From assembly GCA_037142675.1 (NCBI GenBank), contig JBAXAF010000004.1, forward strand, positions 326-64,325: a stretch of 64,000 bases of DNA. Direction: 5' to 3'. The translations under genes were made by a program, and so were the position numbers. Origin of the DNA: Candidatus Berkelbacteria bacterium. Its GTDB lineage: Bacteria; Patescibacteriota; UBA1384; XYA2-FULL-43-10; CAINNR01. Shown here piece after piece: positions 756 to 20,705 of this stretch; the stretch's first letter is position 1; each line of letters opens with the position of its first letter. The notes under the pieces are model-generated. The model ran no database searches. It had not been told where the DNA came from and saw only the letters and a list, made by a program, of their open reading frames with translations.

Positions 756-774
756 AATATACAAAATCCTAAAT

Positions 775-860
775 TCTAATATTTAAACTCTAGACAATTT
801 TCAAAATTCAAATTTCTTAATGTTTTAAACATTTGAACATTTGGTAATTAGAACTTGTTT
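775..860. repeat. AT-rich palindromic intergenic repeat (family member)
   Basis: ctaaattctaa...ttttcaaaattcaaatttcttaatgttttaaacatttgaacatttgg...tttagg; same family as 12095-12205 and 20583-20690. Confidence 0.55.
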
Positions 861-890
861 AGGGTTTCGAATTTCGTGTTTAGAGTTTTT

Positions 891-1997
891 TTACTCTTCG
901 ACGCGGAGTGGCATAATAATATAAACGAAATCCTTAGACTTTTCAGGCCGAATTACGCCAGCCGAGAACCTATCATTGACCTCGAATACCAGCTTCTTAT
1001 CAGGCAAAACCTGCAAAATGTCACCGATATATTTAGCGTTAAATGTTATTTCCTCTGAGTCAACTGACACTGTTGCTGGAACTTTAGAGATATTGTCCCC
1101 CACCTGATCTGCAACTGATGTTATTGTGACTTCTGGCCCCTCAAAACGTATCTTAACGTTATTGCCACCTTGGCGCGCAAATAGCGATGCCATTTTGATT
1201 GCCGATGAAAACTCTTTAACCTCAATCTCTGCCGCCGACTTAAAGGCAGAAGGAATAATTTGTTTATAGTTAGGGAAAGAGCCCTCAATAAGCCTTGAAA
1301 CAACCTGAGTATCCCCTATGGTAAACGAAACCTGGTTGTCAGTTGCAGAGATTCCAACTTTTTCCAATCCTGAAGCAGCGGCGGTAATGCGTAAAATTTC
1401 CTGCATTGTTCTGGCTGGAACTATAAATTCTTTTTCGACATCTGACCCTGGTATACTAATTTTCTTTTCCGCCAATCGATAGCTATCGGTGGCGACTAGA
1501 TATAGAAAATCCTTTTCAAATTTAAAGTAAATGCCAGACAAAACGGGTCTAGTATCGTCTGTGGCGCAGGCGACTACAACCTCGGAGATTGCTTGCGTAA
1601 AATCTCCGGTGGCAAGATCAATTAATGAATCTTTAGAGATGTCGGGTAAAACGGGATATTCAGAGGAATCAATTCCTTTAATATTAGCCTCATACCTGGC
1701 ACTCTTCAGGTGCATAGTGGTCGCTTTTGATTCCAGATCCAAGCTTTCATCTGAGTTGGCGGCAATGAAGTCTGATATTAACCTGGCTGGAACAGTTAGC
1801 GCGCCCTCCTCGTCAACCTTAGCACCAATGGAGGTTGTCACACCAATCTCAAGGTCGGTGGCCGATAATTTTAATTGCCCATCCTTAGCCTCTAAGTAGA
1901 TATTCGACAAAACAGGCAAAGTTGTCCGGGTCCCAACGATTCTAGAAACGATTGAAAGGCCCTTGTTTAGGTTGGCCTGCGTACATGATATTTTCAT
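891..1997 (-). CDS. dnaN: DNA polymerase III beta sliding clamp
   Basis: 368 aa, MKISCTQANLNKGLSIVSRIV...; canonical position between recF and dnaA. Confidence 0.92.
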   Translation of the reverse strand: MKISCTQANLNKGLSIVSRIVGTRTTLPVLSNIYLEAKDGQLKLSATDLEIGVTTSIGAKVDEEGALTVPARLISDFIAANSDESLDLESKATTMHLKSARYEANIKGIDSSEYPVLPDISKDSLIDLATGDFTQAISEVVVACATDDTRPVLSGIYFKFEKDFLYLVATDSYRLAEKKISIPGSDVEKEFIVPARTMQEILRITAAASGLEKVGISATDNQVSFTIGDTQVVSRLIEGSFPNYKQIIPSAFKSAAEIEVKEFSSAIKMASLFARQGGNNVKIRFEGPEVTITSVADQVGDNISKVPATVSVDSEEITFNAKYIGDILQVLPDKKLVFEVNDRFSAGVIRPEKSKDFVYIIMPLRVEE

Positions 1998-2430: not shown

Positions 2431-3816
2431 CTATTCGAATATCATCTCTTTAAGCATTTCAACCTCATCTTTAAATTGTTTGGAATTACCCATATCCTTA
2501 TTAACAGCCTTACAACCATGCATAATTGTAGTATGATCCTTCCCTCCTAATTCACGCCCAACCTCAGGAAAGGATAATCCAACAATATTATAAAGAATAT
2601 ACATTGCAACATGACGAGGTTTAATAACTTCCTTATTTCGTTTGGATGAGACTATATCATCAATTGATATGTTGTAGAATTTTTGTATAGTTTTTAAAAC
2701 TTTTTCAGCTGAAACAACCTGTCTTTTTGTGCTGTGTGAAACCTCGCTAGAGAGCAGTTTTTCAACAACGGCCATTGATGGTTTTTCATTAATAAGATCC
2801 ATGTGGGCAAAAAGTTTATTTAGAGTTCCTTCTAATTCACGAATGCTTGAACTAATATTTTTTGCAATAAATTCCAGAATTTCATTATCAATATTCTTTT
2901 TATGTTCCTGGCACTTCATTTTAAGTATAGCCAATCTCATTTCATAGTCCGGTAATTGAATATCAGCCACCATGCCCCACTCAAAGCGGCTAATCAAGCG
3001 TTTTTCCAATCCTTTAATCTCTTTCGGTGGACGATCAGAAGTAAGAATAATTTGTTTATTTTTCTGATGGAGGTGGTTAAAGGTGTGAAAAAATTCCTCT
3101 TTAGTACCTTCTTTATTGCCCAAAAACTGCACATCATCAACAATTAAAATATCAATATTGCGATAGCGATCTTTAAATTCCTTAGCCTTGCCGCCACGGA
3201 CAGAATCAATATAGTCATTGGTAAATGTTTCACAGGAGACATAAACCACTTTGGTTTTCGGTTTTTGACTAATGGCATAGTTTCCGATTGCTTGCGCCAA
3301 GTGAGTTTTCCCCAGGCCCGGATCGCCATAAATAAAGAGGGGATTATAACTTTTTCCCGGTTTCTGCGCCGATGCTTGAGCAGCAGCATTGGCCAACTGA
3401 TTTGATGAGCCGACTATAAAATTTTCAAAAGTGTAACTGTTCTTCAGGTAGCCATTTTCTTTGTTATCCACAGGCATCTCGTAGTCAGTATTTTCACTCG
3501 AGTTATCCACAGGCCTGTGAATAACTACTGGTACGTCGGTTGGTTTTTCGGCTTTTGTGGAAGTGGACGCGACTTTAAATTTTATCTCCTCAATAGGCTC
3601 CTTGAGCTGCTTTGTTAAAGCATTTTTGATTTCCTTAACATAATGTTTTCGAAGGTAGTCTTCGATAAAAAAAGATGGCACTCCGACTGTAAAAACGCCC
3701 TTTTTGAAGTCCAAAATAAACGTGCCGGCAAACCACGTTTGAAAGTTAGCTTTAGAAATTACCACCTCTAACTCCCCAAGAGCAACTGACCAGATTTTCT
3801 GTAGATCTTTCTCCAT
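2431..3816 (-). CDS. dnaA: Chromosomal replication initiator DnaA (native, low GC)
   Basis: Walker A GDPGLGKTHLAQAIGN; C-terminal DNA-binding domain; likely start MEKDLQKIW at 3816 rather than the ORF-track start; internal DnaA boxes at 3463 and 3503/3516 coincide with repeated PVDN codons. Confidence 0.93.
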   Translation of the reverse strand: MEKDLQKIWSVALGELEVVISKANFQTWFAGTFILDFKKGVFTVGVPSFFIEDYLRKHYVKEIKNALTKQLKEPIEEIKFKVASTSTKAEKPTDVPVVIHRPVDNSSENTDYEMPVDNKENGYLKNSYTFENFIVGSSNQLANAAAQASAQKPGKSYNPLFIYGDPGLGKTHLAQAIGNYAISQKPKTKVVYVSCETFTNDYIDSVRGGKAKEFKDRYRNIDILIVDDVQFLGNKEGTKEEFFHTFNHLHQKNKQIILTSDRPPKEIKGLEKRLISRFEWGMVADIQLPDYEMRLAILKMKCQEHKKNIDNEILEFIAKNISSSIRELEGTLNKLFAHMDLINEKPSMAVVEKLLSSEVSHSTKRQVVSAEKVLKTIQKFYNISIDDIVSSKRNKEVIKPRHVAMYILYNIVGLSFPEVGRELGGKDHTTIMHGCKAVNKDMGNSKQFKDEVEMLKEMIFE

Positions 3817-4040
3817 TTCGCTCCTCAAAATTACTGTACTAAAAACATAGCAAGTTATCCACAGGGGGTGCAAGCACCCCAACTAAAAACTAATAACTAA
3901 AAACTAATAACTAAAGAATTGGAGCGACTATTTTCATTATAATAGTTGATTTTCGCATACGCTTGTGTTACACTCTTTCAGTATCGAATAGATTCGAACT
4001 CCACAACTATTCGTTATTCACTATTAGTTATTCGTTATCA

Positions 4041-4178
4041 ATGAAGCGAACTTACCAACCAAACAATCGAAGACGACACAAAAACCACGGCTTTCTAACA
4101 AGAATGAAATCAGCCGATGGTGCTAATGTTATTGCAAGACGAAGAAAAAAGGGCCGCAAGAAATTAAGCGTAGCCTAA
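4041..4178 (+). CDS. rpmH: 50S ribosomal protein L34
   Basis: [45 protein letters not shown]. Confidence 0.93.
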
Positions 4179-4193
4179 ATTAGCTAACAGCTG

Positions 4194-4232
4194 TCAGCTA
4201 TTAGCTTTCAAGAGCCGTAAGGCTCTTTTTTG
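4194..4232 (+). terminator. Intrinsic terminator after rpmH
   Basis: agagccgtaaggctct hairpin followed by tttttt. Confidence 0.7.
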
Positions 4233-4402
4233 TTTTGTTTGGTATAAAATATCCACAGCATGAAGCTGTGTTATTTTTTAACGCTTTGTTTCATTTCTGT
4301 TTCTACCAGAAATGTTACTATTGGTCGCTCAATCATGGGTGGGTAGTCATGACTTTCACTTTCTTGTTATAATCTAGAAAACAACTAACATTTGGAGGCA
4401 AT

Positions 4403-4597
4403 ATGCCAGGAATCGAAAGTGGTCAAGGTGTTTATGGTAGCGATGTTACTCGGGAAGAAAATAAAGATTGGGCAGCAGGCAAAGGGGCCGAAGCAAATGC
4501 AAATGCAAATGAGTTGGCTAAGGGGTTGGGCAGGGAGAATCCTATTGCTCCAGAAGGACCAACACAGGATGAAGAGAGGTTGGATAAAGTCGCCTAA
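4403..4597 (+). CDS. Small hydrophilic hypothetical protein (64 aa)
   Basis: RBS ggagg 7 nt upstream; terminator hairpin 4612-4640; Ala/Asn/Glu-rich low-complexity sequence. Confidence 0.45.
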   Translation: MPGIESGQGVYGSDVTREENKDWAAGKGAEANANANELAKGLGRENPIAPEGPTQDEERLDKVA

Positions 4598-4642
4598 ATT
4601 AATAAGAAAATCAAAACTGAGCTCACCGGAGCTCTTTTTTGA

Positions 4643-4671
4643 TTGACAAAGAATGCTAAATCGTATATATT
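4643..4671 (+). promoter_or_regulatory. Near-consensus sigma70 promoter (TTGACA-17-TATATT)
   Basis: ttgacaaagaatgctaaatcgtatatatt read directly. Confidence 0.6.
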
Positions 4672-4698
4672 CAACGCGCATTAACCGAGCTTATGTGA

Positions 4699-5304
4699 GT
4701 GAGGTGCAAGGCTGTGGATTACCGTACCGCCATAGGCGTAGCTGCTGGCGCGATGATTCTGGCCGGGTATGCTGTATATATCATCGGGATGTTGCGTTCG
4801 GAGGGTAGCCCCCGGCCGGTGACGTGGAGCATCTGGGCGCTAACGGACCTGGCTATTCTTGGCAGCTTCTTGGTCAGCGGAGCTCATAGTGTCGGATGGA
4901 TGCAGTTGGGCACGACCGCCGGAAATGTGGCGGTCACAATTCTTTCGATAAGACGGGGGTTGTTTAGAGTCGGGCGGATTGATGTGGCATGCTTTCTGCT
5001 TGCATTTGCTGCAATCACTGCCCTTGTGATGTTTCATGACCCCGCAGCCACGCTTCTCTTCGGGTTAGCTTCAAAAACAATAGGCTTCATCCCAACAGGA
5101 CTGAAGTTGTGGTTCGCGATGAAGAACTTCAGGGCAGGTGATAGGGAGTTCTGGCCAACGTGGACGCTCTGGGCTGCTGCGGACATGGCAAGCATCTTCG
5201 CGGTTCAACATTTTGTGTCCATTGAGACGCTGGTCCCTGTGCAGTATAGTGCTCAATGCCTTCTAGTGCTTTATCTGAACAGCAAGATCCCCAAGTCCCC
5301 GTGA
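4699..5304 (+). CDS. GC-rich integral membrane protein, hypothetical (cassette A)
   Basis: 201 aa, multiple hydrophobic helices; terminator cccgtgacaaacgggg plus T-run at 5297-5323. Confidence 0.6.
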   Translation: MRCKAVDYRTAIGVAAGAMILAGYAVYIIGMLRSEGSPRPVTWSIWALTDLAILGSFLVSGAHSVGWMQLGTTAGNVAVTILSIRRGLFRVGRIDVACFLLAFAAITALVMFHDPAATLLFGLASKTIGFIPTGLKLWFAMKNFRAGDREFWPTWTLWAAADMASIFAVQHFVSIETLVPVQYSAQCLLVLYLNSKIPKSP

Positions 5305-5334
5305 CAAACGGGGCTTTTTTTATTGACTCACGAT

Positions 5335-5362
5335 TGACAAAGTATATACTTTTTGCTATAAT
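5335..5362 (+). promoter_or_regulatory. Sigma70-like promoter (TTGACA-16-TATAAT)
   Basis: ttgacaaagtatatactttttgctataat. Confidence 0.6.
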
Positions 5363-5432
5363 GCTCGTACACAGTAACGCGTAAATAGGCCGGGCCTGGG
5401 GGCCATCACAATTCCCAGCAGAGGACATAGAA

Positions 5433-6044
5433 ATGCCCAAGAGTCTCCGCGTCGTTCTGGTGGTTGTTGTGATGGTCCTGGCTAGCATGGCTGCGCACGC
5501 TGACGGCACGCTGTTCCAGCGCTTGGACATGGCTCGGGGCGCCGGGCCTTCGTTGACCACCGCTTGGCTCGATTCCTCGGGCCTCGAGTTGTGGTCGTTC
5601 TGCCAGCCGGACTTCCCGATGTACGAGTTGGGCAAGCTCTGGCCGGTCAAGGCCGACGAGGGCGACACCTTGCTTCTGGGAGGGTATGTCAGTTGGTGGG
5701 ACAAGGTCGACCAAGTCTTCCTGGAACCGTTCTGGGTGTACAACCACCCGCTTGACGGCGACTGGAAGATGGAAACCGGAGGTGGGGCTTACGTCCCTCT
5801 GAACGGTGGGCCCTGGGTCTTCTATACGTCCCAGGTGGCTCTGTCTCACCACGTGAGCAAGAACGTGCGCGCCGGGATCGCTGCCACCAACTGGTGGCAG
5901 GAAGGTGTCGGCAACAGTATCGCCATCGGTCCGAAGCTGAAGATCAGCGCTGGAGACACGTCGTGGCTGCTGCGTTACACCTTCGGTGTAGCCGGTGGAG
6001 CGCCCGATACCGCCCGCGTCGAGCTCAGCATCAAGCTGGACTGA
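5433..6044 (+). CDS. GC-rich secreted protein with signal peptide, OMP-like beta-rich (cassette B)
   Basis: MPKSLRVVLVVVVMVLASMAAHADG signal peptide; alternating aromatic/Gly pattern; terminator 6075-6112. Confidence 0.6.
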   Translation: MPKSLRVVLVVVVMVLASMAAHADGTLFQRLDMARGAGPSLTTAWLDSSGLELWSFCQPDFPMYELGKLWPVKADEGDTLLLGGYVSWWDKVDQVFLEPFWVYNHPLDGDWKMETGGGAYVPLNGGPWVFYTSQVALSHHVSKNVRAGIAATNWWQEGVGNSIAIGPKLKISAGDTSWLLRYTFGVAGGAPDTARVELSIKLD

Positions 6045-6118
6045 TGCTGAACACTGAGCAATGAACGAGTACAAGCGTCTGGCCGACTTCTGGTCAGGCG
6101 CTTTTTTAATTCAAATAA

Positions 6119-6907
6119 TTATTTCAGGTGATCCCAAATAAAATAAAACACAGCTCGCCAAGAATCGGCGATGTTTTTGTTTTCGTGAATCGACATATTC
6201 GAGTTCTTGTAGTCAAAGAGGACAAAAAGGTTATTGAAAATAACTATTGGTGCGGGAAACTCCTCTTTGTTAGGCATGTATTTAAGATTCGCAGGAGGTA
6301 AATTAAATCTTTCGACAATATAAGGATTGCGGATGTGTTCTTCAGGCGTTTTTCCGCGCTGACTTTTAGGTAAGATAGCTAGAATATTTACATCAAGCTT
6401 TTCAGCGGGCCTAACAAATTGTTTGAGAATTGGGTTTGATTCTGAGACAGTTTTGTACGAGTTCCCAAATATTAATACTTTGTTAAGTGGGGGTTTAAGC
6501 TCGGCGAATAATTGATAAAGTCGATCATAAAACTTTGTTATTTCATCAATTCCTCGATAATACTCCGTAATAGTTTGGCTTGTCACTCGATTATACTGTT
6601 CATCTATTTTTGGCAGTATTGAGCTAAGTTCCTGCTTTTTATTTGCCAATATTGACTCAAAAACAGACGGATCGGCGGGTTGATAAAGCGTTCTCTTGCC
6701 CTGCTCAATTGACAAGAGTAGTTTTTTTGAGATCAATCGATCGACATAATAATAAACAGCAGTTCTCTCAACGCCAGCGTTACGAGCTATCTCTGAAAAC
6801 GTTGCTTTGCCAAGTTCAACGGACGACAAATAAACCAAGACCTCAATTCGTTCTAGGCCAAGAGCTATCAACGGTTCGATGTCTTTTGAAGTGTCAAAAT
6901 ATTTCAC
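6119..6907 (-). CDS. TrmB-family HTH transcriptional regulator (paralog 1)
   Basis: N-terminal wHTH LGLERIEVLVYLSSVELGKATFSEIARNAGVERTAVYYYVDRL; low GC. Confidence 0.8.
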   Translation of the reverse strand: MKYFDTSKDIEPLIALGLERIEVLVYLSSVELGKATFSEIARNAGVERTAVYYYVDRLISKKLLLSIEQGKRTLYQPADPSVFESILANKKQELSSILPKIDEQYNRVTSQTITEYYRGIDEITKFYDRLYQLFAELKPPLNKVLIFGNSYKTVSESNPILKQFVRPAEKLDVNILAILPKSQRGKTPEEHIRNPYIVERFNLPPANLKYMPNKEEFPAPIVIFNNLFVLFDYKNSNMSIHENKNIADSWRAVFYFIWDHLK

Positions 6908-6966
6908 ATATCTATTATATCAATACTCCAAAACATGTCAAATATTTGGCAATAGTGTCTAAAGCA

Positions 6967-6995
6967 TTGACTAAAATAAGAATAAATGATACAAT
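6967..6995 (+). promoter_or_regulatory. Consensus sigma70 promoter TTGACT-17-TACAAT
   Basis: ttgactaaaataagaataaatgatacaat. Confidence 0.65.
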
Positions 6996-7080
6996 TCGGC
7001 GTTATGCTGAAGTCTCGGATTTTGGCATAAGGCAAAAAACACAAGGCTGGTTTGGTGCCTAACCAAACGGAGATAAATAG

Positions 7081-7674
7081 ATGATTAAGTTTCGCAACGC
7101 TGTTCTGGTGATGGTTGTGCTGGCGGATGTTTGCTCGGGTGTGCTGGCGCAAAGCGCCTTCATCCGCACTGAGGGTGCAGATGGTAAGGCACCGATGCAA
7201 ACGTTTGCCGCATGGGACGATACGTACGAAATCTGGCTCCAATCGTTCAACACCGATAGCTTCACTATTAGGGGTGGACCGCTCCAGAAGCTAGACAACG
7301 GGATGAAGTTGTCTGAGTGTTTGGCATGGACACCCAAAACTGGCGCGCTGGCGGTTAATGTCAACACCGGCAATGCCACGGTCTGCCAGAAGAGCAAGAC
7401 GTTCTGGGAGCTGGGCGCATATGCTCCGTTGAACGACGCGTCGAGTTGGGCGCTGGTGCTGTACGACGCTCGCCTCCTTGCACGGCTAACGCCCGAGCTG
7501 GCAATTGGTCCAGTCGCCTACGGCAAGTGGAGCGAGGGCGCCGGAAACGACTTCCTCTCCGCTGGCGTCGCCGTTGAGTACCGTGTGAAGGGCGGCTGTT
7601 TCTACGGCCGCTTGGCACGGAATCTCGTGTCTGATAAGAACGAGTTCCGGCTTCAATACGCCTTTGGCTTCTAG
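7081..7674 (+). CDS. GC-rich secreted OMP-like beta-barrel protein ending in aromatic F (cassette C)
   Basis: Signal peptide MIKFRNAVLVMVVLADVCSGVLAQSAF; C-terminus ...LQYAFGF (OMP C-terminal signature); terminator 7693-7733. Confidence 0.6.
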   Translation: MIKFRNAVLVMVVLADVCSGVLAQSAFIRTEGADGKAPMQTFAAWDDTYEIWLQSFNTDSFTIRGGPLQKLDNGMKLSECLAWTPKTGALAVNVNTGNATVCQKSKTFWELGAYAPLNDASSWALVLYDARLLARLTPELAIGPVAYGKWSEGAGNDFLSAGVAVEYRVKGGCFYGRLARNLVSDKNEFRLQYAFGF

Positions 7675-7747
7675 CCAACACAAGAACATCAATGCAAGCG
7701 CTGGGCCTTCGGGTCTGGCGCCTTTTTTTGTCCAAATTATGTAACCC

Positions 7748-7776
7748 TTGACAAACAAATATCACTAGGTTATAAT
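7748..7776 (+). promoter_or_regulatory. Consensus sigma70 promoter TTGACA-17-TATAAT
   Basis: ttgacaaacaaatatcactaggttataat. Confidence 0.65.
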
Positions 7777-7993
7777 TGCTCTACTATGGAATTCATACAT
7801 ATACAATCCATGCTCGGATACAAAATCAACCCAACTTTTCGTTGGGCCACCTTTAGTTTGTCTAACCGAGCTGATTCCTCATTTCATTATATAACGTGAT
7901 TTTTTAGAACTCATATATAACTTGAAGAACGTCTTGGTTAGCTAGACCAAGGCGTTTTTGTTTTAGCTATGTTCGTACACAATTTGAAAGGAA
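7777..7993 (+). promoter_or_regulatory. Long structured 5' leader with terminator-like hairpin; candidate riboswitch/attenuator
   Basis: Hairpins cccaacttttcgttggg and gaacgtcttggttagctagaccaaggcg followed by tttttgtttt; RBS aggaag before ATG. Confidence 0.4.
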
Positions 7994-9190
7994 GTGAGAA
8001 AGATGGCAAAAAAGACCGTGAGGTATTACCTGTTGTTGTCGTTGCTCTACCGATTTTCCAATACCTGCTTTGCCGCGACCTATGTAACATTTCTAATGAG
8101 CAGGGGAGGACTAAACCTGTTTCAGGTTAATATGGTCAATTTCATCTTCTTTGCGACGATGTTTTTGACCGAAATCCCGACCGGCGCCGTGGCCGACTGT
8201 TTCGGTCGCAAGCTGTCTTTTCTTATCTCTTGCTCGATTAACTGTGTTTCGTTGCTGGTGTATGCCCTGTCGCACACCTTCACTGGCTTTGCCACCGCCG
8301 AGGCAATGGGCGCAGTTGGGTCAACATTCTCGTCAGGCGCATTTCAGGCCTGGGTGGTTGATTCTCTTAACCACCACGGCTACCAGGAGGACTTTGGCAA
8401 GCTGTTCGCTCGCCAAAACCAGTTGGGCAACTTGGTCGGTATGGGTGCCGCCATCATTGGTGCACACCTGGCAACTATAAACCCGGCTTTCCCTTGGTTT
8501 CTGTCGGCTGCGTTTGTCTTCGCCACTGGTGTTGTCGCAATCTTTGTTATGAGGGAGGACTACCGGGAAAAAAGCAGTATCAATTTGTTGGCGACAGCCA
8601 AAGAGTTCGGCCGCAAGTTTGTGGTTAGCGCCCAAACAATCCGTGCTGGTGGGCCAGTAACACTAATGATGTTACTTGGACTGGTCTATTCCATTGGAGT
8701 CCAAGCCCCCAACATGCAGTGGCAGCCGTATTTCCGTAAGCACTTCGCCTCGGAAGCTGAATTGGGTTATTTGTGGGCTGGTGTCTCATTGGCGATCATC
8801 ATTGGCTCACAAATGTCAGCCATGATGCGTCGTGGGCCTGCGTTCGAGCGACTAGCGTTGATAGGAACCCAGGTTTCTATTGGCCTATTCATCGCGCTAG
8901 CGGGGATACAGTCGCCGTGGATGTTATCTGTTTTGTTTTACCTCATCCACGAGGCTGGGCGTGGGATGTTTTCACCGCTTAAGGATGCGTATCTCAACGA
9001 TGCCATCCAAAAGGAGGAGCGGGCAACCCTACTTTCCTGTGGTTCAATCTCTAGCCACATCGGTTCAATGGTTGGGCTAGTGATGTCTGGTCTTATGGCC
9101 AACAGGCTCTCAATCGCTCCCACCTGGATAGTGTCAGGGATTTTCCTTGTCGTCGGGACACTCGCAGTGTCTCGAATCAAGCGCACATGA
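7994..9190 (+). CDS. MFS-family transporter (cassette D)
   Basis: 398 aa, about 12 TM helices; GRK motif in loop 2-3; terminator gcggtctgc...gcagaccgc plus T-run at 9195-9228. Confidence 0.75.
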   Translation: MRKMAKKTVRYYLLLSLLYRFSNTCFAATYVTFLMSRGGLNLFQVNMVNFIFFATMFLTEIPTGAVADCFGRKLSFLISCSINCVSLLVYALSHTFTGFATAEAMGAVGSTFSSGAFQAWVVDSLNHHGYQEDFGKLFARQNQLGNLVGMGAAIIGAHLATINPAFPWFLSAAFVFATGVVAIFVMREDYREKSSINLLATAKEFGRKFVVSAQTIRAGGPVTLMMLLGLVYSIGVQAPNMQWQPYFRKHFASEAELGYLWAGVSLAIIIGSQMSAMMRRGPAFERLALIGTQVSIGLFIALAGIQSPWMLSVLFYLIHEAGRGMFSPLKDAYLNDAIQKEERATLLSCGSISSHIGSMVGLVMSGLMANRLSIAPTWIVSGIFLVVGTLAVSRIKRT

Positions 9191-9234
9191 CTCAGGCGGT
9201 CTGCTCCTCGCAGACCGCTTTTTTTGTCCCAAAT

Positions 9235-9990
9235 TTAGCCTTCGCCGACTTTTGCCTCGGTGGATTTCTCCCACAATAGAGTGTGGAAAATTTTCATTGC
9301 CTCGTATAGTTCTTTACTCTTAATAAGCATGCCAAAGTTCTCTTTTTGCGTGCTAAAAACACTAAGTTTTCCTGTGTCGTAGATTCCAATTCCAACCTCA
9401 ATTCTCATCCCATCTGGTCCCCATCGCAACTCTCGCAAGTACTCCAAGCCGTGTGATGATGTTTCATAGTTAATATCTGTATCTTTGTATCGAATAGTTT
9501 TGATAAATATTCCCTTTTCAATTCGAGCTTTGTCGATCTCGGCGATTGATCGTACCCCGCCAATCATTTGAGTTGCGCTCCCTGGCCAAATGTAGAGTGC
9601 CTCTTTTTTGCACTTCAACTCCTCGCGGATAACATTGCGCACCTGATCTGGCCCCTCAAAATAACTGACGCGTGGTTTGTGTGGGGTTAGATTAAATAAG
9701 TCTATAAAAGCCGGCAAACTATCTTTTAGTTTTGCCAATCTTTCATTCTCGAGCTCAATCAGGCGTTCTGGCGACTCAGCTTTGTAATTCATTCGGCCGT
9801 TTTTCTCGAACTTTGATATCAAACCCAGTTCAACTAGGTGATCAATAAAGTAATAAATTGATGTTCGTTTAATGCCGGCACGAGCAGCGATTGGAGTAAT
9901 GGTTGAACTGCCAAGCTCCAAAATAGCCAAGTAGACCTTGGCTTCCTTCTCGTCCAACCCAAATTTTACTAGTGTGTCCTCTTTGTTCAT
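9235..9990 (-). CDS. TrmB-family HTH regulator (paralog 2)
   Basis: FGLDEKEAKVYLAILELGSSTITPIAARAGIKRTSIYYFIDHL; start chosen at MNKEDTL (RBS gagga); ORF-track N-terminal 25 aa are GC-rich and atypical. Confidence 0.75.
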   Translation of the reverse strand: MNKEDTLVKFGLDEKEAKVYLAILELGSSTITPIAARAGIKRTSIYYFIDHLVELGLISKFEKNGRMNYKAESPERLIELENERLAKLKDSLPAFIDLFNLTPHKPRVSYFEGPDQVRNVIREELKCKKEALYIWPGSATQMIGGVRSIAEIDKARIEKGIFIKTIRYKDTDINYETSSHGLEYLRELRWGPDGMRIEVGIGIYDTGKLSVFSTQKENFGMLIKSKELYEAMKIFHTLLWEKSTEAKVGEG

Positions 9991-10156
9991 TCCTGTCATC
10001 CTCGGGCTTGCCTGCCCGCCTTTGGAGGGACCCGGGGATCCATTAATAGTTAAGACTTCGCACATATCGTCTAAAAAATCGTCGATAACACATTAATTCT
10101 AGCATAATTGGCACAAATTAGTCAAGTATTATTTGTCTAAATCATTGTCTAATATA

Positions 10157-10185
10157 TTGACAATATGCCAAATCAGTGATACAAT
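10157..10185 (+). promoter_or_regulatory. Consensus sigma70 promoter TTGACA-17-TACAAT
   Basis: ttgacaatatgccaaatcagtgatacaat. Confidence 0.65.
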
Positions 10186-10271
10186 GTGTTGTTACGATCG
10201 AAGTGGCAAACAAGCCAATCGCTCGTAAGGCAGATTACAACTTACGCCGGCGGGCTAACGCTAGGAATGAA

Positions 10272-10694
10272 ATGGATAACGATATTTGCGACTTTGGCTG
10301 TCCTGACGCCGTTGAGAACATCGCATTCAGTGGAAACACGTATTACGGCTTTGCTCGTTACGAAATCGCCACCGAGACCCGCGGGGGCATTCCTTACAAG
10401 ACTGAGGTTCGCGTCAACTATTTCCCCGTTGTTGATGGGCGCGTTCGGGTAGTAGATGTGGTTTTGATGCGATTCACCTGGGAGTCGTTTTACAAGACGC
10501 ATACGGTCGATGAAGCGCTGAAATCCAATTGGCCAGAAATATTGGCCGAGATGATCGCGGAGTCGCTGCCGGTTCGCATCGAGGAATTCTGCATCGCACG
10601 GCGCAAGAGTAGTGATCAGATGATACAGAATTTTAAGGAATGGCTGAAGTGTGAAAAGGGAATTGAGCTTTCGGAAGACCGCTCTGAACCGTAG
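10272..10694 (+). CDS. GC-rich hypothetical protein (operon E, gene 1)
   Basis: Start MDNDICDF with RBS aggaa; the ORF-track start 10176 would lie inside the promoter. Confidence 0.55.
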   Translation: MDNDICDFGCPDAVENIAFSGNTYYGFARYEIATETRGGIPYKTEVRVNYFPVVDGRVRVVDVVLMRFTWESFYKTHTVDEALKSNWPEILAEMIAESLPVRIEEFCIARRKSSDQMIQNFKEWLKCEKGIELSEDRSEP

Positions 10695-10719
10695 CAGGTT
10701 CGGAGCCGTTTCCGAGGGA
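10668..10719 (+). repeat. 52-nt hairpin-containing direct repeat, copy 1 (overlaps the 3' end of gene 1)
   Basis: ctttcggaagaccgctctgaaccgtagcaggttcggagccgtttccgaggga; about 92% identical to 11137-11188. Confidence 0.8.
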
Positions 10720-10756
10720 AATCAAGTGCTGGCGAGCCAAAACGCAAGGAAATAAC

Positions 10757-11131
10757 ATGAGTGGTACAGTTGACGATTTGATGGCAGCGCTTCGGATGAT
10801 CGACAGTCACTCGCAGCAGCTTGATGAAGAAAAAGAGACCCTGGCGTTGGCGCGGCGTGTCATCTCCGATCGTCACTTCCGGCAGCTGGTTCAGCGGCTG
10901 GAAACCGATCGGGTTGGATTGGCACGCGAGATCCTCGAAGCCGAGCAGATCCGCATCGACAACACCCCGATCGAAGATCTGTCGCTGTCGGTTCGGACAT
11001 ACAACGGCTTGAAGAAGAGTGGTATCAACACCCTCGGAGAGCTGGCTGAGTGCACGAAGGAGAAGTTGGCAGGCATCCGCAACTGGGGCCGCCGCTGCCA
11101 GGAAGAAGTAGATGAGATTCTGAAGAAATAG
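10757..11131 (+). CDS. Standalone RNA polymerase alpha-subunit C-terminal-domain-like protein
   Basis: IEDLSLSVRTYNGLKKSGINTLGELAECTKEKLAGIRNWGRRCQEEVDEILKK resembles the RpoA alpha-CTD helix-hairpin-helix. Confidence 0.6.
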   Translation: MSGTVDDLMAALRMIDSHSQQLDEEKETLALARRVISDRHFRQLVQRLETDRVGLAREILEAEQIRIDNTPIEDLSLSVRTYNGLKKSGINTLGELAECTKEKLAGIRNWGRRCQEEVDEILKK

Positions 11132-11136
11132 GAGTG

Positions 11137-11188
11137 CTTTCGGACGACCGCTCTGAACTGTAACAGGTTCGGAGCCGTTTCCGAGGGA
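11137..11188 (+). repeat. 52-nt direct repeat, copy 2
   Basis: ctttcggacgaccgctctgaactgtaacaggttcggagccgtttccgaggga. Confidence 0.8.
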
Positions 11189-11214
11189 GATAATCAGAAA
11201 GGTGGTTATGAAGT

Positions 11215-11625
11215 ATGTACATGTACCCTTTTGCATGGAGTGGCCAGGTATATAATCTGGGCGAAGGCGATGTCCAGATGCTGGTTGAGTTGTTGTGTGC
11301 AGGCCTAGACAAGGTGCTTGTAAACAACGATTACGAAGATGGCTCCAGGAAAGTGCGAATCTCGACTCACGACTATAAAAAGGCTAAATTCAACGACAAG
11401 CTGATCGAGCTCGAGTATACACTTCCCTGCAGGCATTTGCTTGTAGGACTGGGAAGTGGAGATTACCCGCGCTCCTTGCATCTTCCGCAAGCAATCGGTG
11501 GGGGGACCCTCGTCCGTAAGTCTCACGAGCCTGGCAAACCTATATACGTATGTCAGTTGGACATTGGAGACAGAAAGATAGAGCTGAAGGTGTGTTTCGT
11601 TGTGACTGAAGACAAGTTGAGATAG
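11215..11625 (+). CDS. GC-rich hypothetical protein (operon E, gene 3)
   Basis: RBS aaaggtgg; terminator ctccgggtcgtgattgattcggag plus T-run at 11660-11690. Confidence 0.55.
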   Translation: MYMYPFAWSGQVYNLGEGDVQMLVELLCAGLDKVLVNNDYEDGSRKVRISTHDYKKAKFNDKLIELEYTLPCRHLLVGLGSGDYPRSLHLPQAIGGGTLVRKSHEPGKPIYVCQLDIGDRKIELKVCFVVTEDKLR

Positions 11626-11750
11626 TCCAAGCAACTGCTGTCGGCAACCAACTTCGCCTCCGGGTCGTGATTGATTCGGAGCTTTTTTATTTCAAACTAG
11701 ATCCTTCGGCTACTCTCAGGATGACAATCTAAAAAATTCATGCTAAACTT

Positions 11751-12104
11751 TTGGCAATGTTAAACAATATCAACCGCCTGCGGAAGGCGGGGGAAATCCA
11801 AAAAGTATTCAAATTCGGCAAATCAATACGGTCTGCTAATTTTTCTATTCGCTATAATCCGAACCGCGCAAGCAATAATCGCTTCGCTGTTGTTGTTGGC
11901 ACAAAGGTGGACAAGCGAGCAACTCGCAGAAACGCTATAAAACGGCTTGTAAGAGAAGTTATTCGCTTAAATATACAATCTATCCCGACAAGCTTTGATA
12001 TTGTTCTCACGGCTCACAAACTAGCAAATTGGCCGATAAAACTGGTCGATGTCCAGCCAGAATTAACAGAACTGTTAAAACAAATTCGAAACTCTAAATC
12101 CTAA
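11751..12104 (+). CDS. rnpA: RNase P protein component
   Basis: 117 aa with conserved FAVVVGTKVDKRATRRNAIKRLVRE. Confidence 0.9.
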   Translation: MAMLNNINRLRKAGEIQKVFKFGKSIRSANFSIRYNPNRASNNRFAVVVGTKVDKRATRRNAIKRLVREVIRLNIQSIPTSFDIVLTAHKLANWPIKLVDVQPELTELLKQIRNSKS

Positions 12105-12205
12105 ATCCTAAACAAATCCAAATGATCCAATTTTCAAATATTTTAAACATTAAGACATTTGAATTTTGATATTGTTTAGAAATTAGATATTAGAATTTAG
12201 AAATT
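12095..12205. repeat. AT-rich palindromic intergenic repeat (family member)
   Basis: Nearly identical to 20583-20690: ...caaatgatccaattttcaaatattttaaacattaagacatttgaattttgatattgtttag... Confidence 0.7.
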
Positions 12206-12448: not shown

Positions 12449-12509
12449 ATTGTGAATAATGGGCTCAAAACCATAATTCTTAATTCATAATTCTTAATTC
12501 AAGGAAAAA

Positions 12510-13473: not shown

Positions 13474-13752
13474 TTGAGCTATGATTCAAGCGTCATGAAA
13501 TATTTTGTCTACATGCTAGAGAATCAAAAAGGAAGACATTATATTGGAATAACAACTGATTTGGAACGCAGACTGGCCGAACATAATATTAATGGCGCCA
13601 AATCGACAAAGCCATTTGGACCGTGGAAAATGATTTATTCTGAGCAATTTGATTCCAGATCAGAGGCTTGCAAACGAGAGTGGCATTTAAAAAATTCACC
13701 AGGAAAGAAAGAAAAATCCGATATTATTAAACAATACGGAGAGGTCGCATAG
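13474..13752 (+). CDS. GIY-YIG domain nuclease (UPF0213-like)
   Basis: YFVYMLENQKGRHYIGITTDLERRLAEHN. Confidence 0.75.
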   Translation: MSYDSSVMKYFVYMLENQKGRHYIGITTDLERRLAEHNINGAKSTKPFGPWKMIYSEQFDSRSEACKREWHLKNSPGKKEKSDIIKQYGEVA

Positions 13753-13828
13753 TTGGTCTAGTGCGCTTGTTTCGAAAACAAGTAGGGCTGCAAGGCTCTC
13801 GCGAGTTCGAATCTCGCCCTCTCCGCCA
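13738..13828 (+). tRNA. tRNA-Ser (anticodon CGA)
   Basis: ggagaggtcgcatagttggtctagtgcgc...ttcgaaa anticodon loop, long variable arm, gagttcgaatctcgc T-arm, CCA encoded; overlaps the last 15 nt of the upstream ORF. Confidence 0.8.
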
Positions 13829-15423: not shown

Positions 15424-16293
15424 TCAGGCAGACCTGACCGTGGCAGCATCCTCGGGCTGGCCAATGATCTGGCGGTACTTGTCGCGTAGCTCCGGCGACA
15501 ACCTCTCTGTCATGCTGATAGCGTCTCGACGGCCGCACAGGCTATCGTGGTGAGTGATGTGGGCGGCAACCAGTTTTTCGACTGCCGCCTCACGTTTGGC
15601 CGGTGGGAAGAGCGGGATCATGCACTCGGCATAATCGAGCCGGTAACTGGCGCTGCATGCTTCGTGGAAAAGCGCACGAAGACGCTTCTGGTCTCTAATG
15701 AAACCGAGCTCGGAGCTGAAACCGTTGACATCGCGGTAGGTGTACTGCGATCGGTGATGTTCAGCCGGGTGCATATCCATCTCGAGCAGGGAGAAGAACA
15801 GCCTCTCAAATGCTGCGTGTCGCAACCGCTTCGAGTCGATGGCGCGGATCGACCGCAGTGTTTCTTCGACGTTCCAGAAGCCATACCGGCAAAGCTGCAC
15901 GTTGGCGGCGTCACGGTCCTTTTTTGGGAGACCGACGATTGCTTTTCGCACTATGCGAATGTCGGAGTTCCGACGTGCGAGGTACTTCGGCATCCAGGTC
16001 ATAACCTCGTCGGTGTTCAGGTGACGACCAACGACCTCGAGATCGCGAAGCATGCCGTCGTAGTTGTAGCCATTTTCAACCACAATGGCTACAACTTTGC
16101 CTGCCTGCCCAGGTTGGAGCTCCTTTGGCAGTAGCGGAATGGCGGTGATGAGCGCAATCCTGAGCTGTTGGTGGCTGATCATCTTATCGATGACACCTGT
16201 TACCAGCTCCACCTTTCGCTCGGCGCTCATGTCTTGGAAGCAGTAGCTTAGCTGGCGCTCATATTCGTCCCCCCCAGATGTGGCTGACGGCAC
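15424..16293 (-). CDS. GC-rich hypothetical protein (island F)
   Basis: 289 aa; overlaps the upstream gene by 35 nt. Confidence 0.55.
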   Translation of the reverse strand: MPSATSGGDEYERQLSYCFQDMSAERKVELVTGVIDKMISHQQLRIALITAIPLLPKELQPGQAGKVVAIVVENGYNYDGMLRDLEVVGRHLNTDEVMTWMPKYLARRNSDIRIVRKAIVGLPKKDRDAANVQLCRYGFWNVEETLRSIRAIDSKRLRHAAFERLFFSLLEMDMHPAEHHRSQYTYRDVNGFSSELGFIRDQKRLRALFHEACSASYRLDYAECMIPLFPPAKREAAVEKLVAAHITHHDSLCGRRDAISMTERLSPELRDKYRQIIGQPEDAATVRSA

Positions 16294-16798
16294 AGTTGTA
16301 CCTGGCCATGACTAAGCAATGCAGCCGGTCTTCTGAGCGGTATTTGCTATTGGTCAGGCTTGAAGCATCCCTGGCCTGGTAATCGTAGCCGCCGAGGATA
16401 GTCAGCTCGTGAATTCGTCTTCCGACCTGTTTGCGCAGATGTTTTGTTTCGATCTTCCGGCACCAGTTGATCGCCGCCCAGAGTAGGGCCGCTGATCTGT
16501 GGTTATCGCTGCAAATTTCGACCTCAGCGATAAACTGGTTACAGGCTGCAAGTCGAAGATTATCAGCCTTGTCGCCGAGAAGTGCAGCAATTCTTGAGAG
16601 TGATTGCTCGGACTGGTGGATAGTGCGCCCGGTCATCCCGCCACCAGGTGTGATAATCACCATCCAGTGGATTAAGGACTTGGCGCATACCATCAACTGG
16701 TGATAAGTCAGACTGTGTCCGAGTTGGGTCACCAGGGTCACGGCCGCGTCAATATCACCAGCGATGATCAGAGCAGACAACAATTGCAAGGATCTCAT
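16259..16798 (-). CDS. GC-rich hypothetical protein (island F)
   Basis: 179 aa; RBS gagagg; minus-strand promoter TTGATT-17-TATAAC at about 16842-16870. Confidence 0.55.
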   Translation of the reverse strand: MRSLQLLSALIIAGDIDAAVTLVTQLGHSLTYHQLMVCAKSLIHWMVIITPGGGMTGRTIHQSEQSLSRIAALLGDKADNLRLAACNQFIAEVEICSDNHRSAALLWAAINWCRKIETKHLRKQVGRRIHELTILGGYDYQARDASSLTNSKYRSEDRLHCLVMARYNCAVSHIWGGRI

Positions 16799-16919
16799 TG
16801 TAGGTTCCTCTCACAAATCGGGTTGATTGTGAAACACCTAAGTTATATCAGCAAGCAATATTTTAATCAAATTTAATAAAAAAAACGCGGCGAAGGAACT
16901 CGCCGCGTGTACTCTTTGC

Positions 16920-20690: not shown

Positions 20691-20705
20691 TTCCCCGGAG
20701 GGGAC

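What the first reader, a model, noticed from the sequence alone, without database searches (positions are those of the whole stretch)
4200..11700. The near-universal rpmH-rnpA linkage is split by a 7.5-kb mosaic insert
rpmH ends at 4178 and rnpA-yidD-yidC begins at 11751; these genes are normally contiguous. The intervening block alternates GC-rich cassettes (membrane protein, two OMP-like secreted proteins, an MFS transporter, a three-gene operon) with two low-GC TrmB paralogs. Each cassette has its own promoter and terminator. An insertion at the chromosome's most conserved synteny point, right beside oriC, is unusual.
Basis: partly seen in the sequence, partly recalled or inferred. Interest (0 to 1): 0.7.

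Follow-up and report, generated by a model that had tools for sequence, protein, structure and literature searches.

The report
Variable gene island splitting rpmH–rnpA
In one group of tiny uncultured bacteria (Berkelbacteria), the normally inseparable rpmH and rnpA genes next to the replication origin are held apart by an old, constantly reshuffled island of transport and envelope genes, including porin-like barrel proteins that are unexpected in bacteria thought to lack an outer membrane.

Summary
rpmH (4042-4178) and rnpA (11757-12104) are 7.6 kb apart. Between them, GC-rich self-contained transcription units alternate with two low-GC TrmB regulator genes. Contigs from three other assembly sources are 100% identical across the junctions, so the joins are not assembly errors.

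This is not one recent insertion:
- **Relatives share the split.** Every Berkelbacteria relative recovered has the junction open, by 0.56 to 7.6 kb, in at least 8 configurations with partly shared genes of the same composition. In 61 outgroup loci the genes are contiguous.
- **The region recombines.** Synonymous divergence is mosaic along the locus, and an indel is flanked by a duplicated terminator.
- **No mobility genes were found**: no integrase, transposase, attC-like site or phage signal.
- **GC-rich genes are genome-wide.** About 20 lie in roughly 10 patches across the window.

I read it as a long-lived flexible island.

Two things were unexpected. The two "OMP-like" proteins belong to an unannotated family predicted with high confidence (pLDDT 95.6) to form 12-stranded KdgM/NanC-like outer-membrane barrels, with signal peptides and mostly C-terminal Phe. 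All five TrmB genes in the window sit divergently beside a GC-rich gene or operon.

The parts
4042..4178 (+). rpmH (ribosomal protein L34), left anchor of the island
   Evidence: Pfam PF00468, E 2e-21. The ATG at 4042 gives MKRTYQPN.... It is 93-98% identical in relatives.
4179..4402 (+). Conserved non-coding stretch: rpmH terminator (4210-4227), then promoter-like site (4344-4373) and Shine-Dalgarno sequence of the small ORF
   Evidence: for the sites. It is 88.6% identical at nucleotide level to L081, higher than the neighbouring core genes at 78-80%. No Rfam hit.
4403..4597 (+). Small acidic protein (64 aa); the most widely retained island gene
   Evidence: ORF with a GGAGG Shine-Dalgarno sequence. 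Equivalents lie in L081 (59 aa, called gene at the same position), L107/L115 (47% by tblastn) and probably L002. No family match.
4699..5304 (+). Multi-pass membrane protein (about 196-201 aa), GC .54; own promoter 4643-4671 and terminator 5297-5313
   Evidence: Orthologues lie at the same position in L081 (38% identity) and L115/L107 (46%) with GC .52-.53. No Pfam hit even at E<1.
5334..5362 (+). Perfect sigma-70-type promoter of barrel gene 1. Its spacer holds the palindrome AAGTATATACTT (5340-5351), a candidate operator.
   Evidence: 12/12 match. The same promoter and palindrome are conserved upstream of the L004 orthologue. The operator role is inferred.
5433..6044 (+). Secreted protein predicted to form a 12-stranded outer-membrane-type beta-barrel (barrel 1), GC .62, GC3 .80; terminator 6073-6103
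   Evidence: AlphaFold2 with a 71-sequence alignment gives pLDDT 95.6, a signal helix and 12 strands. Best Foldseek PDB hits are KdgM, NanC, FapF, OmpG, intimin and COG4313. Strands alternate hydrophobic and polar faces. Orthologues are 82% (L081) and 60% (L004) identical.
6119..6907 (-). TrmB-family regulator (low GC .38), divergent partner of barrel 2
   Evidence: PF01978, E 5e-11. 91% identical in L081 with dN/dS .06. The same divergent TrmB-barrel pairing occurs in L113 and L121.
6908..7080 (.). Divergent control region: TrmB promoter (6941-6914, 12/12), barrel 2 promoter (6967-6995) and the palindrome TGTCAAATATTTGGCA (6936-6951) over the TrmB -35 element
   Evidence: The palindrome is a perfect 16-mer in L081. 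The operator role is inferred.
7081..7674 (+). Barrel 2, a distant paralogue of barrel 1 that ends ...RLQYAFGF; GC .57; terminator 7698-7721
   Evidence: BLASTP to barrel 1 gives 28% identity, E 2e-4. It sits in the same HMM family. 80% identical in L081.
7994..9190 (+). MFS transporter (395-398 aa), GC .51; promoter 7748-7776 (12/12), terminator 9194-9220
   Evidence: PF07690, E 4e-22. All named relatives are CPR, at 40-45% identity. It lies next to rnpA in L081 and L115/L107.
9235..9990 (-). Second TrmB-family regulator (GC .42), divergent partner of the three-gene operon; promoter-like site 10125-10096
   Evidence: PF01978, E 1e-13. 95-96% aa identity and 86% nt identity to L003, where core genes are only 71-75% nt identical.
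10157..11681 (+). Three-gene operon. Promoter 10157-10185; ORF 10272-10694; stand-alone RNA polymerase alpha linker plus C-terminal domain protein 10757-11131; ORF 11215-11625; terminator 11658-11681. A 51-nt hairpin follows genes 1 and 2 (10669-10719 and 11138-11188).
   Evidence: PF03118, E 3.5e-19; aligns to RpoA residues about 205-301. Hairpins fold at -29 to -33 kcal/mol, z -3.7 to -5.0, with the upstream stop codon in the loop at 10669-10719 and in L003. The first two genes are present in swapped order in L003.
11721..12104 (+). rnpA with its own extended -10 promoter (TGcTAAACT); right anchor of the island
   Evidence: PF00825, E 4e-23. A TGCTAnnnT element directly after the upstream terminator is conserved in L081, L003, L004 and L107.

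Best explanation
The space between rpmH and rnpA, 2-9 kb to the right of oriC, is a long-lived flexible genomic island shared by a whole clade of Candidatus Berkelbacteria.

**How the site became permissive.** In this clade rnpA has its own promoter and rpmH its own terminator. The two genes are therefore no longer a transcriptional unit, and the site tolerates cargo. The existence of these signals is shown; that they are what makes the site permissive is inferred.

**What the cargo is.** It consists of self-contained units, each with its own promoter, ORF(s) and terminator. They encode envelope and transport functions:
- a small acidic protein
- a multi-pass membrane protein
- an MFS transporter
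- two porin-like 12-stranded beta-barrels
- a three-gene operon with a free RNA polymerase alpha C-terminal domain protein

Barrel 2 and the operon are each paired with a divergently transcribed TrmB-family regulator, which probably represses them through palindromes in the promoters. That regulatory step is inferred.

**How content turns over.** Change comes by homologous recombination, not by a mobile-element integrase.
- Related lineages exchange segments using rpmH, rnpA and other conserved island genes as homology arms.
- Cassettes are gained or lost between similar terminator hairpins.

**Composition.** The GC-rich composition is a property of this genome's accessory gene pool as a whole, not of this site.
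For: **Clade-wide split, contiguous elsewhere.**
- The rpmH-rnpA gap is 558 bp in L002, 850 in L004, about 900 (L098 group) or about 630 with HicBA (L106/L111), 4557 in L003, 6828 in L081 and 7576 here. L097 has a TrmB upstream of rnpA and L115 has a 355-aa gene plus small ORF, memb and MFS.
- In 61 outgroup loci rpmH to yidC is 463-833 bp.

**Shared genes with shared composition.**

**Mosaic divergence**.
- Window against L081: core genes have dS at or above 1.4, or saturated. Barrel 1 is .63, TrmB .72, barrel 2 .78 and rnpA .61. memb and MFS are saturated, with dN .59 and .36.
- Window against L003: TrmB .74, alpha-CTD .49 and rnpA .46, while dnaA, dnaN and yidC are saturated.
- Nucleotide identity shows the same pattern, 86-89% against 71-75%.
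- All comparable genes show purifying selection, dN/dS .03-.22.

**Indel mechanism.** The two extra genes in L081 are bracketed by two copies of one terminator (GAGAACAACGGCGC...GGCGCCTTTTTTAA). The window has a single terminator at that point.

**No mobility machinery.** There is no integrase or transposase in the Pfam, NCBIfam, PHROGs or PADLOC scans, no boundary repeats and no relatives on viral contigs.

**Autonomous units, and an rnpA promoter conserved in relatives**.

**TrmB pairing.**
- All five TrmB genes in the window are divergent neighbours of GC-rich genes. The fifth was predicted from the pattern and then confirmed.
- The TrmB-barrel pair recurs in L081, L113 and L121.

**Junctions are not artefacts**.
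Against: - The recombination inference rests on pairwise dS for a handful of short genes. Low dS in GC3-rich genes could partly reflect codon constraint, although the low-GC TrmB genes and rnpA show it too.
- rnpA has low dS in both comparisons, so unusually constrained synonymous sites cannot be excluded.
- No population-level or phylogenetic recombination test was run.
- Only one indel has a visible repeat signature.
- L003 has a scaffold gap (a run of N) inside its island.
- The regulatory role of TrmB and the palindromes is inferred from position only.
- The functions of four of the ten ORFs in the block are unknown.
- Why cargo genes stay GC-rich while co-inherited regulators do not is unexplained.
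Confidence: 0.75

Rival explanations
1. A single, fairly recent foreign insertion (a genomic island or mobile element from a higher-GC donor) landed between rpmH and rnpA in this genome.
For: - The composition is atypical: GC .49-.62 against about .40 for the core.
- Most cargo proteins have no Pfam family.
- At least one GC-rich gene elsewhere in the window, the second DnaA at 36514-37995, is a clear xenologue. It is 63% identical to the dnaA of a 68.5%-GC contig with the canonical dnaA-dnaN-recF order, and about 50-55% identical to many Armatimonadota DnaA, but only 33% identical to the resident DnaA.
- The tetranucleotide signature of GC-rich genes is closer to that donor-like contig (r .59-.66) than the core is (.30).
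Against: - Orthologous cargo sits at the same site, in the same order and with the same GC, in species whose core genes are saturated at synonymous sites.
- memb and MFS are shared even with a lineage whose rnpA is only 55% identical.
- Named relatives of the MFS are all CPR.
- There is no integrase, no att-like direct repeat and no phage or defence hit.
- The block contains two low-GC resident-type TrmB genes.
Confidence: 0.1
2. Assembly or binning chimera: GC-rich fragments of another organism were stitched into a Berkelbacteria contig.
For: The alternation of GC between .36 and .62 over a few hundred bases looks like what a chimera could produce.
Against: - Four assembly sources (NCBI MAG, ENA MEGAHIT-style contig, Logan contig of SRR7053514, JGI contig) give 100% identical sequence, and one of them spans both junctions.
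- The same interleaving occurs in at least five other species-level relatives.
- Promoters and terminators fit the gene boundaries.
Confidence: 0.02
3. An integron-like or other site-specific cassette array, in which cassettes are captured one by one at a fixed attachment site next to rpmH or rnpA.
For: The content is modular and single-gene units vary between relatives. Similar hairpin sequences (the terminators) lie at cassette ends, and one indel is flanked by a repeated hairpin.
Against: - There is no integrase anywhere in the block or among the window ORFs scanned.
- The hairpins are ordinary GC-stem plus T-tract terminators, not attC-like sites.
- Every cassette has its own strong promoter, unlike integron cassettes.
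- Genes lie in both orientations.
- The only long repeat (51-56 nt) is confined to the three-gene operon.
Confidence: 0.05
4. The high GC of the cargo is maintained within the lineage, by GC-biased gene conversion in frequently recombining accessory genes or by selection on these particular mRNAs. On this view it is not a mark of foreign origin. This rival concerns the cause of the mosaic composition and is compatible with the flexible-island explanation.
For: - The excess is at synonymous sites: GC3 .58-.80 against .31-.45.
- It persists in orthologues across saturated divergence.
- In three genomes with different backbones the barrel gene exceeds its adjacent TrmB regulator: window .57 against .38, L113 .64 against .47, L121 .57 against .50. 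The window and L113 TrmB partners are reciprocal best hits.
- The same genes show signs of recombination.
Against: - The TrmB genes and rnpA also look recombined but are low-GC.
- At least one GC-rich gene (the second DnaA) really is a xenologue from a high-GC lineage.
- No direct test of conversion bias was possible.
Confidence: 0.35

Closest known systems
Flexible genomic islands (gene-flux hotspots between conserved core genes, replaced by homologous recombination; described for marine bacteria and for enterobacterial surface-antigen loci). This comparison rests on my own knowledge.
   Same: The flanks are conserved core genes. Content differs between close relatives. The cargo is mostly envelope and transport proteins. 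Divergence is mosaic along the locus. No dedicated integrase is present.
   Different: The site is the rpmH|rnpA junction beside oriC, which was contiguous in the 61 outgroup loci examined here. The host is a CPR bacterium with a very small genome. The cargo has a strong, persistent GC3 excess over the backbone.
KdgM/NanC family of 12-stranded monomeric outer-membrane porins (PDB 4fqe, 4pr7, 2wjq)
   Same: The predicted fold is a 12-stranded antiparallel barrel of about 180 residues after a signal peptide, with TM-scores .55-.69. Strand faces alternate hydrophobic and polar. Most family members end in Phe. KdgM and NanC are substrate-specific sugar-acid channels under dedicated regulators, and here the genes sit beside sugar-regulator-type TrmB genes.
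   Different: No sequence-level relationship was found. There is no Pfam KdgM hit and no PDB hit with the family profile. Only 2 of 71 members touch PF13557, another outer-membrane barrel family. The organism belongs to a group reported to lack an outer membrane (PMC6744442).
TrmB-family sugar-sensing transcription regulators (PF01978; archaeal TrmB and TrmBL1)
   Same: They share the N-terminal winged-helix domain, a length of about 250 aa, and a position next to transport genes with palindromes in the target promoters.
   Different: The C-terminal part matches no known effector domain. There are at least five very divergent paralogues (21-38% identity) in 64 kb, each beside a GC-rich gene.
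The rpmH-rnpA(-yidD-yidC) origin-proximal gene cluster of bacteria
   Same: Gene order and orientation of dnaN-dnaA | rpmH ... rnpA-yidD-yidC are kept, and oriC lies beside it.
   Different: rpmH and rnpA are uncoupled, each with its own terminator or promoter, and lie 0.56 to 7.6 kb apart throughout this clade.

Membership tests
Integrase-mediated genomic island, prophage or ICE | Integrase, recombinase or transposase gene in or beside the element | tested here: not met
   Pfam, NCBIfam, PHROGs and PADLOC scans of all block ORFs, and Pfam scans of most window ORFs, found none.
Integrase-mediated genomic island, prophage or ICE | Flanking direct repeats (att sites), often at a tRNA gene | tested here: not met
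   No repeat pairs the two boundaries. The nearest tRNA, tRNA-Ser at 13738-13828, lies outside the block.
Integrase-mediated genomic island, prophage or ICE | Absent from the same site in close relatives | tested here: not met
Integron cassette array | intI integrase, attC sites at cassette ends, and promoterless cassettes | tested here: not met
   There is no integrase. Cassette ends are ordinary terminators. Each cassette has a consensus promoter.
Flexible genomic island (recombination hotspot) | Conserved core genes on both flanks with variable content between related genomes | tested here: met
   At least 8 configurations lie between rpmH and rnpA across the clade.
Flexible genomic island (recombination hotspot) | Divergence of island segments discordant with the flanking core | tested here: met
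   dS is .46-.78 for some segments against at least 1.4 or saturated for the core. memb and MFS are far more diverged. No formal recombination test was run.
KdgM/NanC porin family | 12-stranded transmembrane beta-barrel fold with a signal peptide | tested here: met
   AlphaFold2 pLDDT 95.6 with 12 strands. Foldseek top hits are 4pr7, 4fqe and 2wjq, E about 2e-6. This is a prediction, not a solved structure.
KdgM/NanC porin family | Sequence membership (Pfam KdgM family or detectable homology to solved members) | tested here: not met
   No Pfam hit for the window proteins. The family profile finds no PDB sequence at E<=1.
BAM-dependent outer-membrane proteins in general | C-terminal beta-signal ending in an aromatic residue | tested here: met
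   55 of 71 family members end in F or W. Barrel 2 ends YAFGF, while barrel 1 ends IKLD.
BAM-dependent outer-membrane proteins in general | The organism has an outer membrane and BamA | not testable with these tools
   Only 64 kb of the genome is available and no BamA-like gene was seen among the ORFs scanned. The literature reports that CPR lack an outer membrane (PMC6744442).
TrmB family regulators | N-terminal TrmB winged-helix DNA-binding domain | tested here: met
   PF01978, E 5e-11 and 1e-13.
TrmB family regulators | C-terminal sugar-binding effector domain as in archaeal TrmB | tested here: not met
   No second domain was detected. NCBIfam TrmB equivalog scores are far below cutoff, and the one gene tested (6119-6907) has no PDB sequence hit.

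The most novel reading that the evidence does not exclude
The TrmB-controlled barrels are genuine outer-membrane-type porins made by a bacterium that has no outer membrane of its own. An epibiotic Berkelbacterium would secrete them and have them inserted into the outer membrane of its diderm host, possibly by the host's BAM machinery through the conserved C-terminal Phe signal. This would open a nutrient channel that feeds the parasite's own MFS transporter. The Armatimonadota-like second DnaA and the GC-rich gene pool would then point to the host lineage. Alternatively, this CPR clade has an unrecognised outer layer that holds beta-barrels.
Probability: 0.12. Interest if true: 0.85.

Novelty: new member of a known kind. 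Interest (0 to 1): 0.5.

Why it matters
- **Gene order.** Even one of the most conserved gene junctions in bacteria can become a stable gene-flux hotspot once the two genes are transcriptionally uncoupled. That is a caution for synteny-based origin and operon prediction in CPR genomes.
- **CPR genome dynamics.** It gives a concrete, multi-genome example of how very small CPR genomes keep a flexible, recombining accessory compartment next to oriC.
- **Envelope biology.** It reveals an unannotated protein family of about 100 sequence clusters, with contexts in CPR genomes, that is confidently predicted to be an outer-membrane-type porin. The group is believed to have no outer membrane. If real, this bears directly on how these episymbionts obtain nutrients and on what their envelope looks like.
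- **A testable rule.** In all five cases in this window a low-GC TrmB regulator sits next to GC-rich cargo. This regularity could help annotate accessory modules in these genomes.

Tried and rejected
**Tried, with no useful result**
- AlphaFold2 on the barrel with only 4 sequences gave pLDDT 39.8 and was unusable. It was rescued with a 71-sequence alignment.
- The word-indexed homology search for barrel 1 found only 3 proteins. The full HMM search was needed.
- An exact look-up of rnpA found nothing, because the start codon choice differed.
- The search for related loci with the 71-sequence barrel alignment failed because the alignment was too diverse.
- The afdb50 fold library was not available.
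- Rfam found only tRNAs, and nothing in the conserved 4179-4402 spacer.
- PHROGs and PADLOC gave only weak wHTH or alpha-CTD domain echoes, with no phage or defence system.
- Viral-contig scans for the alpha-CTD protein, the second DnaA and the barrels were empty.
- The 51-nt hairpin repeat is confined to the three-gene operon and its L003 counterpart, so it is not a general cassette boundary.
- Pfam at E<1 gave nothing for the small ORF, memb, the two unknown operon genes or the two extra L081 genes.
- A PDB sequence search gave nothing for TrmB 6119.

**Considered and rejected**
- Assembly chimera.
- Integron.
- Prophage or ICE.
- A single recent foreign insert.

Full report
**1. What is there**

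The window begins at the replication origin of a Candidatus Berkelbacteria (CPR/Patescibacteria) chromosome. It is NCBI GCA_964526775.1, contig CAZGMR010000009.1, from position 412.

dnaN (891-1997) and dnaA (2431-3882) lie on the minus strand. Nine DnaA-box matches cluster between them at 2105-2430, and cumulative GC skew reaches its minimum near 4200.

rpmH is at 4042-4178. rnpA (11757-12104), yidD and yidC follow only after 7.6 kb. Between them lie:
- a 64-aa acidic ORF
- a multi-pass membrane protein
- a secreted protein (5433-6044)
- a TrmB regulator on the minus strand (6119-6907)
- a second secreted protein (7081-7674)
- an MFS transporter
- a second minus-strand TrmB (9235-9990)
- a three-gene operon whose middle gene is a free-standing RNA polymerase alpha linker plus C-terminal domain

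The plus-strand genes from 4699 on have GC .49-.62 and GC3 .58-.80. The TrmB genes and the flanks have GC .35-.45 and GC3 .31-.45.

Promoter-like and terminator-like sites are about twice as frequent as in shuffled sequence. They include three perfect -35/-10 matches positioned in front of genes and a terminator after each unit.

**2. Not an artefact**

Three contigs from other assembly sources are 100% identical to the window: an ENA contig (window 1-10155), a Logan contig of run SRR7053514 (window 3886-12130, which contains rpmH, the whole block and rnpA) and a JGI contig covering the right junction.

**3. Not a single insertion**

In 61 outgroup loci from many phyla, including Saccharibacteria and Parcubacteria, the distance from rpmH to yidC is 463-833 bp. 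That leaves room for rnpA and yidD only.

Every relative of this Berkelbacteria clade that I could recover has the junction open, each differently:
- **L081 group (dnaA 89% aa):** small ORF, memb, barrel 1, two extra genes, TrmB, barrel 2, MFS.
- **L115/L107:** a 355-aa gene, small ORF, memb, MFS.
- **L003:** a HicAB-like pair, a TrmB, a scaffold gap, then the orthologues of TrmB 9235, the alpha-CTD gene and its neighbour in swapped order.
- **L004:** barrel 1 alone.
- **L106/L111:** HicBA alone. Their near-identical relatives (L098 group) instead carry a 250-aa ORF with an OmpR-like motif.
- **L097:** a TrmB.
- **L002/L095:** only about 560 bp, probably the small ORF, but 4 kb of GC-rich genes between dnaA and rpmH.

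Orthologues keep the same composition as here.

**4. Evidence for recombination**

Between the window and L081, core genes have dS of at least 1.4 or are saturated. Barrel 1, TrmB 6119, barrel 2 and rnpA have dS .61-.78. memb and MFS are saturated, with dN .59 and .36.

Between the window and L003, TrmB 9235, the alpha-CTD gene and rnpA have dS .46-.74 and 86-89% nucleotide identity. dnaA, dnaN and yidC are saturated at 71-75%. All comparable genes have dN/dS .03-.22, so they are functional.

The two extra genes of L081 are bracketed by two copies of one terminator, where the window has a single terminator.

rnpA carries a conserved extended -10 element directly after whichever terminator precedes it, in all relatives.

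No integrase, transposase, att-like repeat, attC-like site, phage family, defence family or viral-contig relative was found.

I therefore read the region as a flexible genomic island maintained by homologous recombination. This is inference from pairwise comparisons, not a formal test.

**5. The mosaic composition is genome-wide**

About 20 GC-rich genes in roughly ten patches are spread over the 64 kb. One patch (15.4-19.6 kb) is absent from both L081 and L115, where GH1 and DUF7544 are adjacent.

After normalising for base composition, the block's GC-rich genes resemble the other GC-rich genes (r .77) more than the core (r .61). The TrmB genes resemble the core.

The origin of this gene pool is mixed:
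- Named relatives of the MFS are all CPR.
- The GC-rich second DnaA (36514-37995) is only 33% identical to the resident DnaA. It is 63% identical to the dnaA of a 68.5%-GC contig with canonical dnaA-dnaN-recF order, and about 50-55% identical to many Armatimonadota DnaA.
- That second DnaA is syntenic and even more GC-rich (.61) in a contig (L118) from the same metagenome as the L002-lineage contig L095.

In three genomes with different backbones, the barrel gene is more GC-rich than its adjacent TrmB regulator. Recent foreign origin therefore cannot be the whole explanation, and the cause remains open.

**6. The barrels**

A word-indexed search found only three relatives of barrel 1. A full HMM search of 1.8 billion representatives found 102, nearly all 185-205 aa, unnamed and from metagenomes.

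With 71 of them as the alignment, AlphaFold2 gave pLDDT 95.6, with a signal helix and 12 strands. The best Foldseek PDB matches are all transmembrane barrels. They are led by the 12-stranded porins KdgM and NanC, then FapF, OmpG, the intimin and invasin beta-domains and the COG4313 channel.

Other supporting features:
- Strands alternate hydrophobic and polar faces.
- 69 of 71 members have a signal-peptide-like N-terminus.
- 55 of 71 end in Phe or Trp.
- Two members touch Pfam PF13557, an outer-membrane barrel family.

There is no sequence-level link to any solved structure.

Contexts I could retrieve place the family in CPR-like genomes, again next to TrmB genes. L113 has three TrmB genes and two barrels. 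L121 comes from a soil MAG whose locus tag (BH11PAT4) suggests a Patescibacteria bin.

CPR are reported to lack an outer membrane (PMC6744442). This is the most surprising element, but it rests on a predicted structure.

**7. TrmB pairing**

All five TrmB genes in the window lie divergently next to a GC-rich gene or operon. I predicted the fifth (61768-62517, next to 62686-63180) from the pattern before Pfam confirmed it.

Palindromes overlap the promoters. AAGTATATACTT lies in the spacer of the barrel 1 promoter and is conserved in L004. TGTCAAATATTTGGCA lies over the -35 of TrmB 6119 and is a perfect palindrome in L081. Local repression by TrmB is the likely mechanism, but it is inferred.

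**8. Verdict**

The block is a new example of a known kind of feature, a flexible island, at an unusual and highly conserved site in an under-studied lineage. Its cargo, TrmB-paired porin-like barrels, deserves follow-up in its own right.

Noticed in passing
window 36514-37995 (+), with tRNA-Ser genes at 35883-35972 and 36374-36466 and a PD-(D/E)XK gene at 35958-36434: A second, GC-rich (.54) full-length DnaA. It is 33% identical to the resident DnaA. Its closest relatives are 61-69% identical, including the dnaA of a 68.5%-GC contig with dnaA-dnaN-recF order, followed by many Armatimonadota DnaA at about 50-55%. It is syntenic in the relative L118, where its GC is .61 in a .42 backbone. It looks like an old xenologue kept by the clade.
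   Followed up: partly
window 6119-6907(-), 9235-9990(-), 31690-32442(+), 34315-35094(+), 61768-62517(-): All five low-GC TrmB-family genes in the window are divergent neighbours of GC-rich genes (7081-7674; 10272-11625; 30707-31555; 33331-34137 with ParA-like 32494-33270; 62686-63180). The paralogues are only 21-38% identical to each other. Three have likely orthologues (two at 44-47% identity, one only a weak reciprocal best hit at 23%) clustered around barrel genes in L113.
   Followed up: partly
window 15424-19560: A four-gene GC-rich patch (three ORFs with no family match plus an enoyl-ACP-reductase-like SDR) lies between GH1 and DUF7544. Those two genes are adjacent in L081 and L115, so this is another variable site.
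   Followed up: partly
window 763-892, 12076-12205, 20574-20691, 29750-29810, 35795-35856, 38757-38892, 40925-40983, 42105-42242: An AT-rich, internally palindromic intergenic repeat family of up to about 120 nt, with arms like AATTTCTAAnnTCTAA. It occurs only in low-GC backbone spacers, and one copy sits between rnpA and yidD.
   Followed up: no
window 10669-10719 and 11138-11188; L003 5433-5471: A 51-nt GC-rich hairpin (-29 to -33 kcal/mol) without a T-tract follows the first two genes of the operon. At 10669-10719 and in L003 the stop codon of the upstream gene lies in the apical loop. The second copy looks like the leftover 3' end of a duplicated gene.
   Followed up: partly
window 49297-49361 and 50833-50897: An exact 65-nt duplicate containing a terminator-like hairpin and T-run, placed after two consecutive genes.
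   Followed up: no
window 13474-13752 and 13738-13828: A small GIY-YIG nuclease gene overlaps the start of tRNA-Ser(CGA) by 15 nt. In L081 the GIY-YIG gene is inverted and an extra 102-aa gene is present.
   Followed up: no
window 12471-12502 and 46462-46493 (also 30215-30248): A 32-nt perfect inverted repeat (CCATAATTCTTAATTCATAATTCTTAATTCAA). The two perfect copies each lie just upstream of a gene start (yidC and the gene at 46519).
   Followed up: no
L003 9104-9536; L106 604-1024; L111 1892-2312: A HicA/HicB-like toxin-antitoxin pair occupies the same rpmH|rnpA site in other members of the clade. In one population it is present in some contigs (L106, L111) and replaced by a different 250-aa ORF in others (L098 group).
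   Followed up: partly
window 6996-7080 and 5363-5432; L004 upstream of its barrel gene: The barrel mRNAs would have 5' leaders of about 70-85 nt with a stem-loop just before the Shine-Dalgarno sequence (for example GGTTTGGTGCCTAACCAAAC). The stem-loop is present, with different sequence, in orthologues.
   Followed up: no
window 20706-26563: A T2SSE-type ATPase and three T4SS-pilin-domain genes lie origin-proximal. This fits a report that secretion and pilus genes of Patescibacteria cluster near dnaA, rnpA and rpmH (bioRxiv 10.1101/2025.01.22.634366).
   Followed up: no
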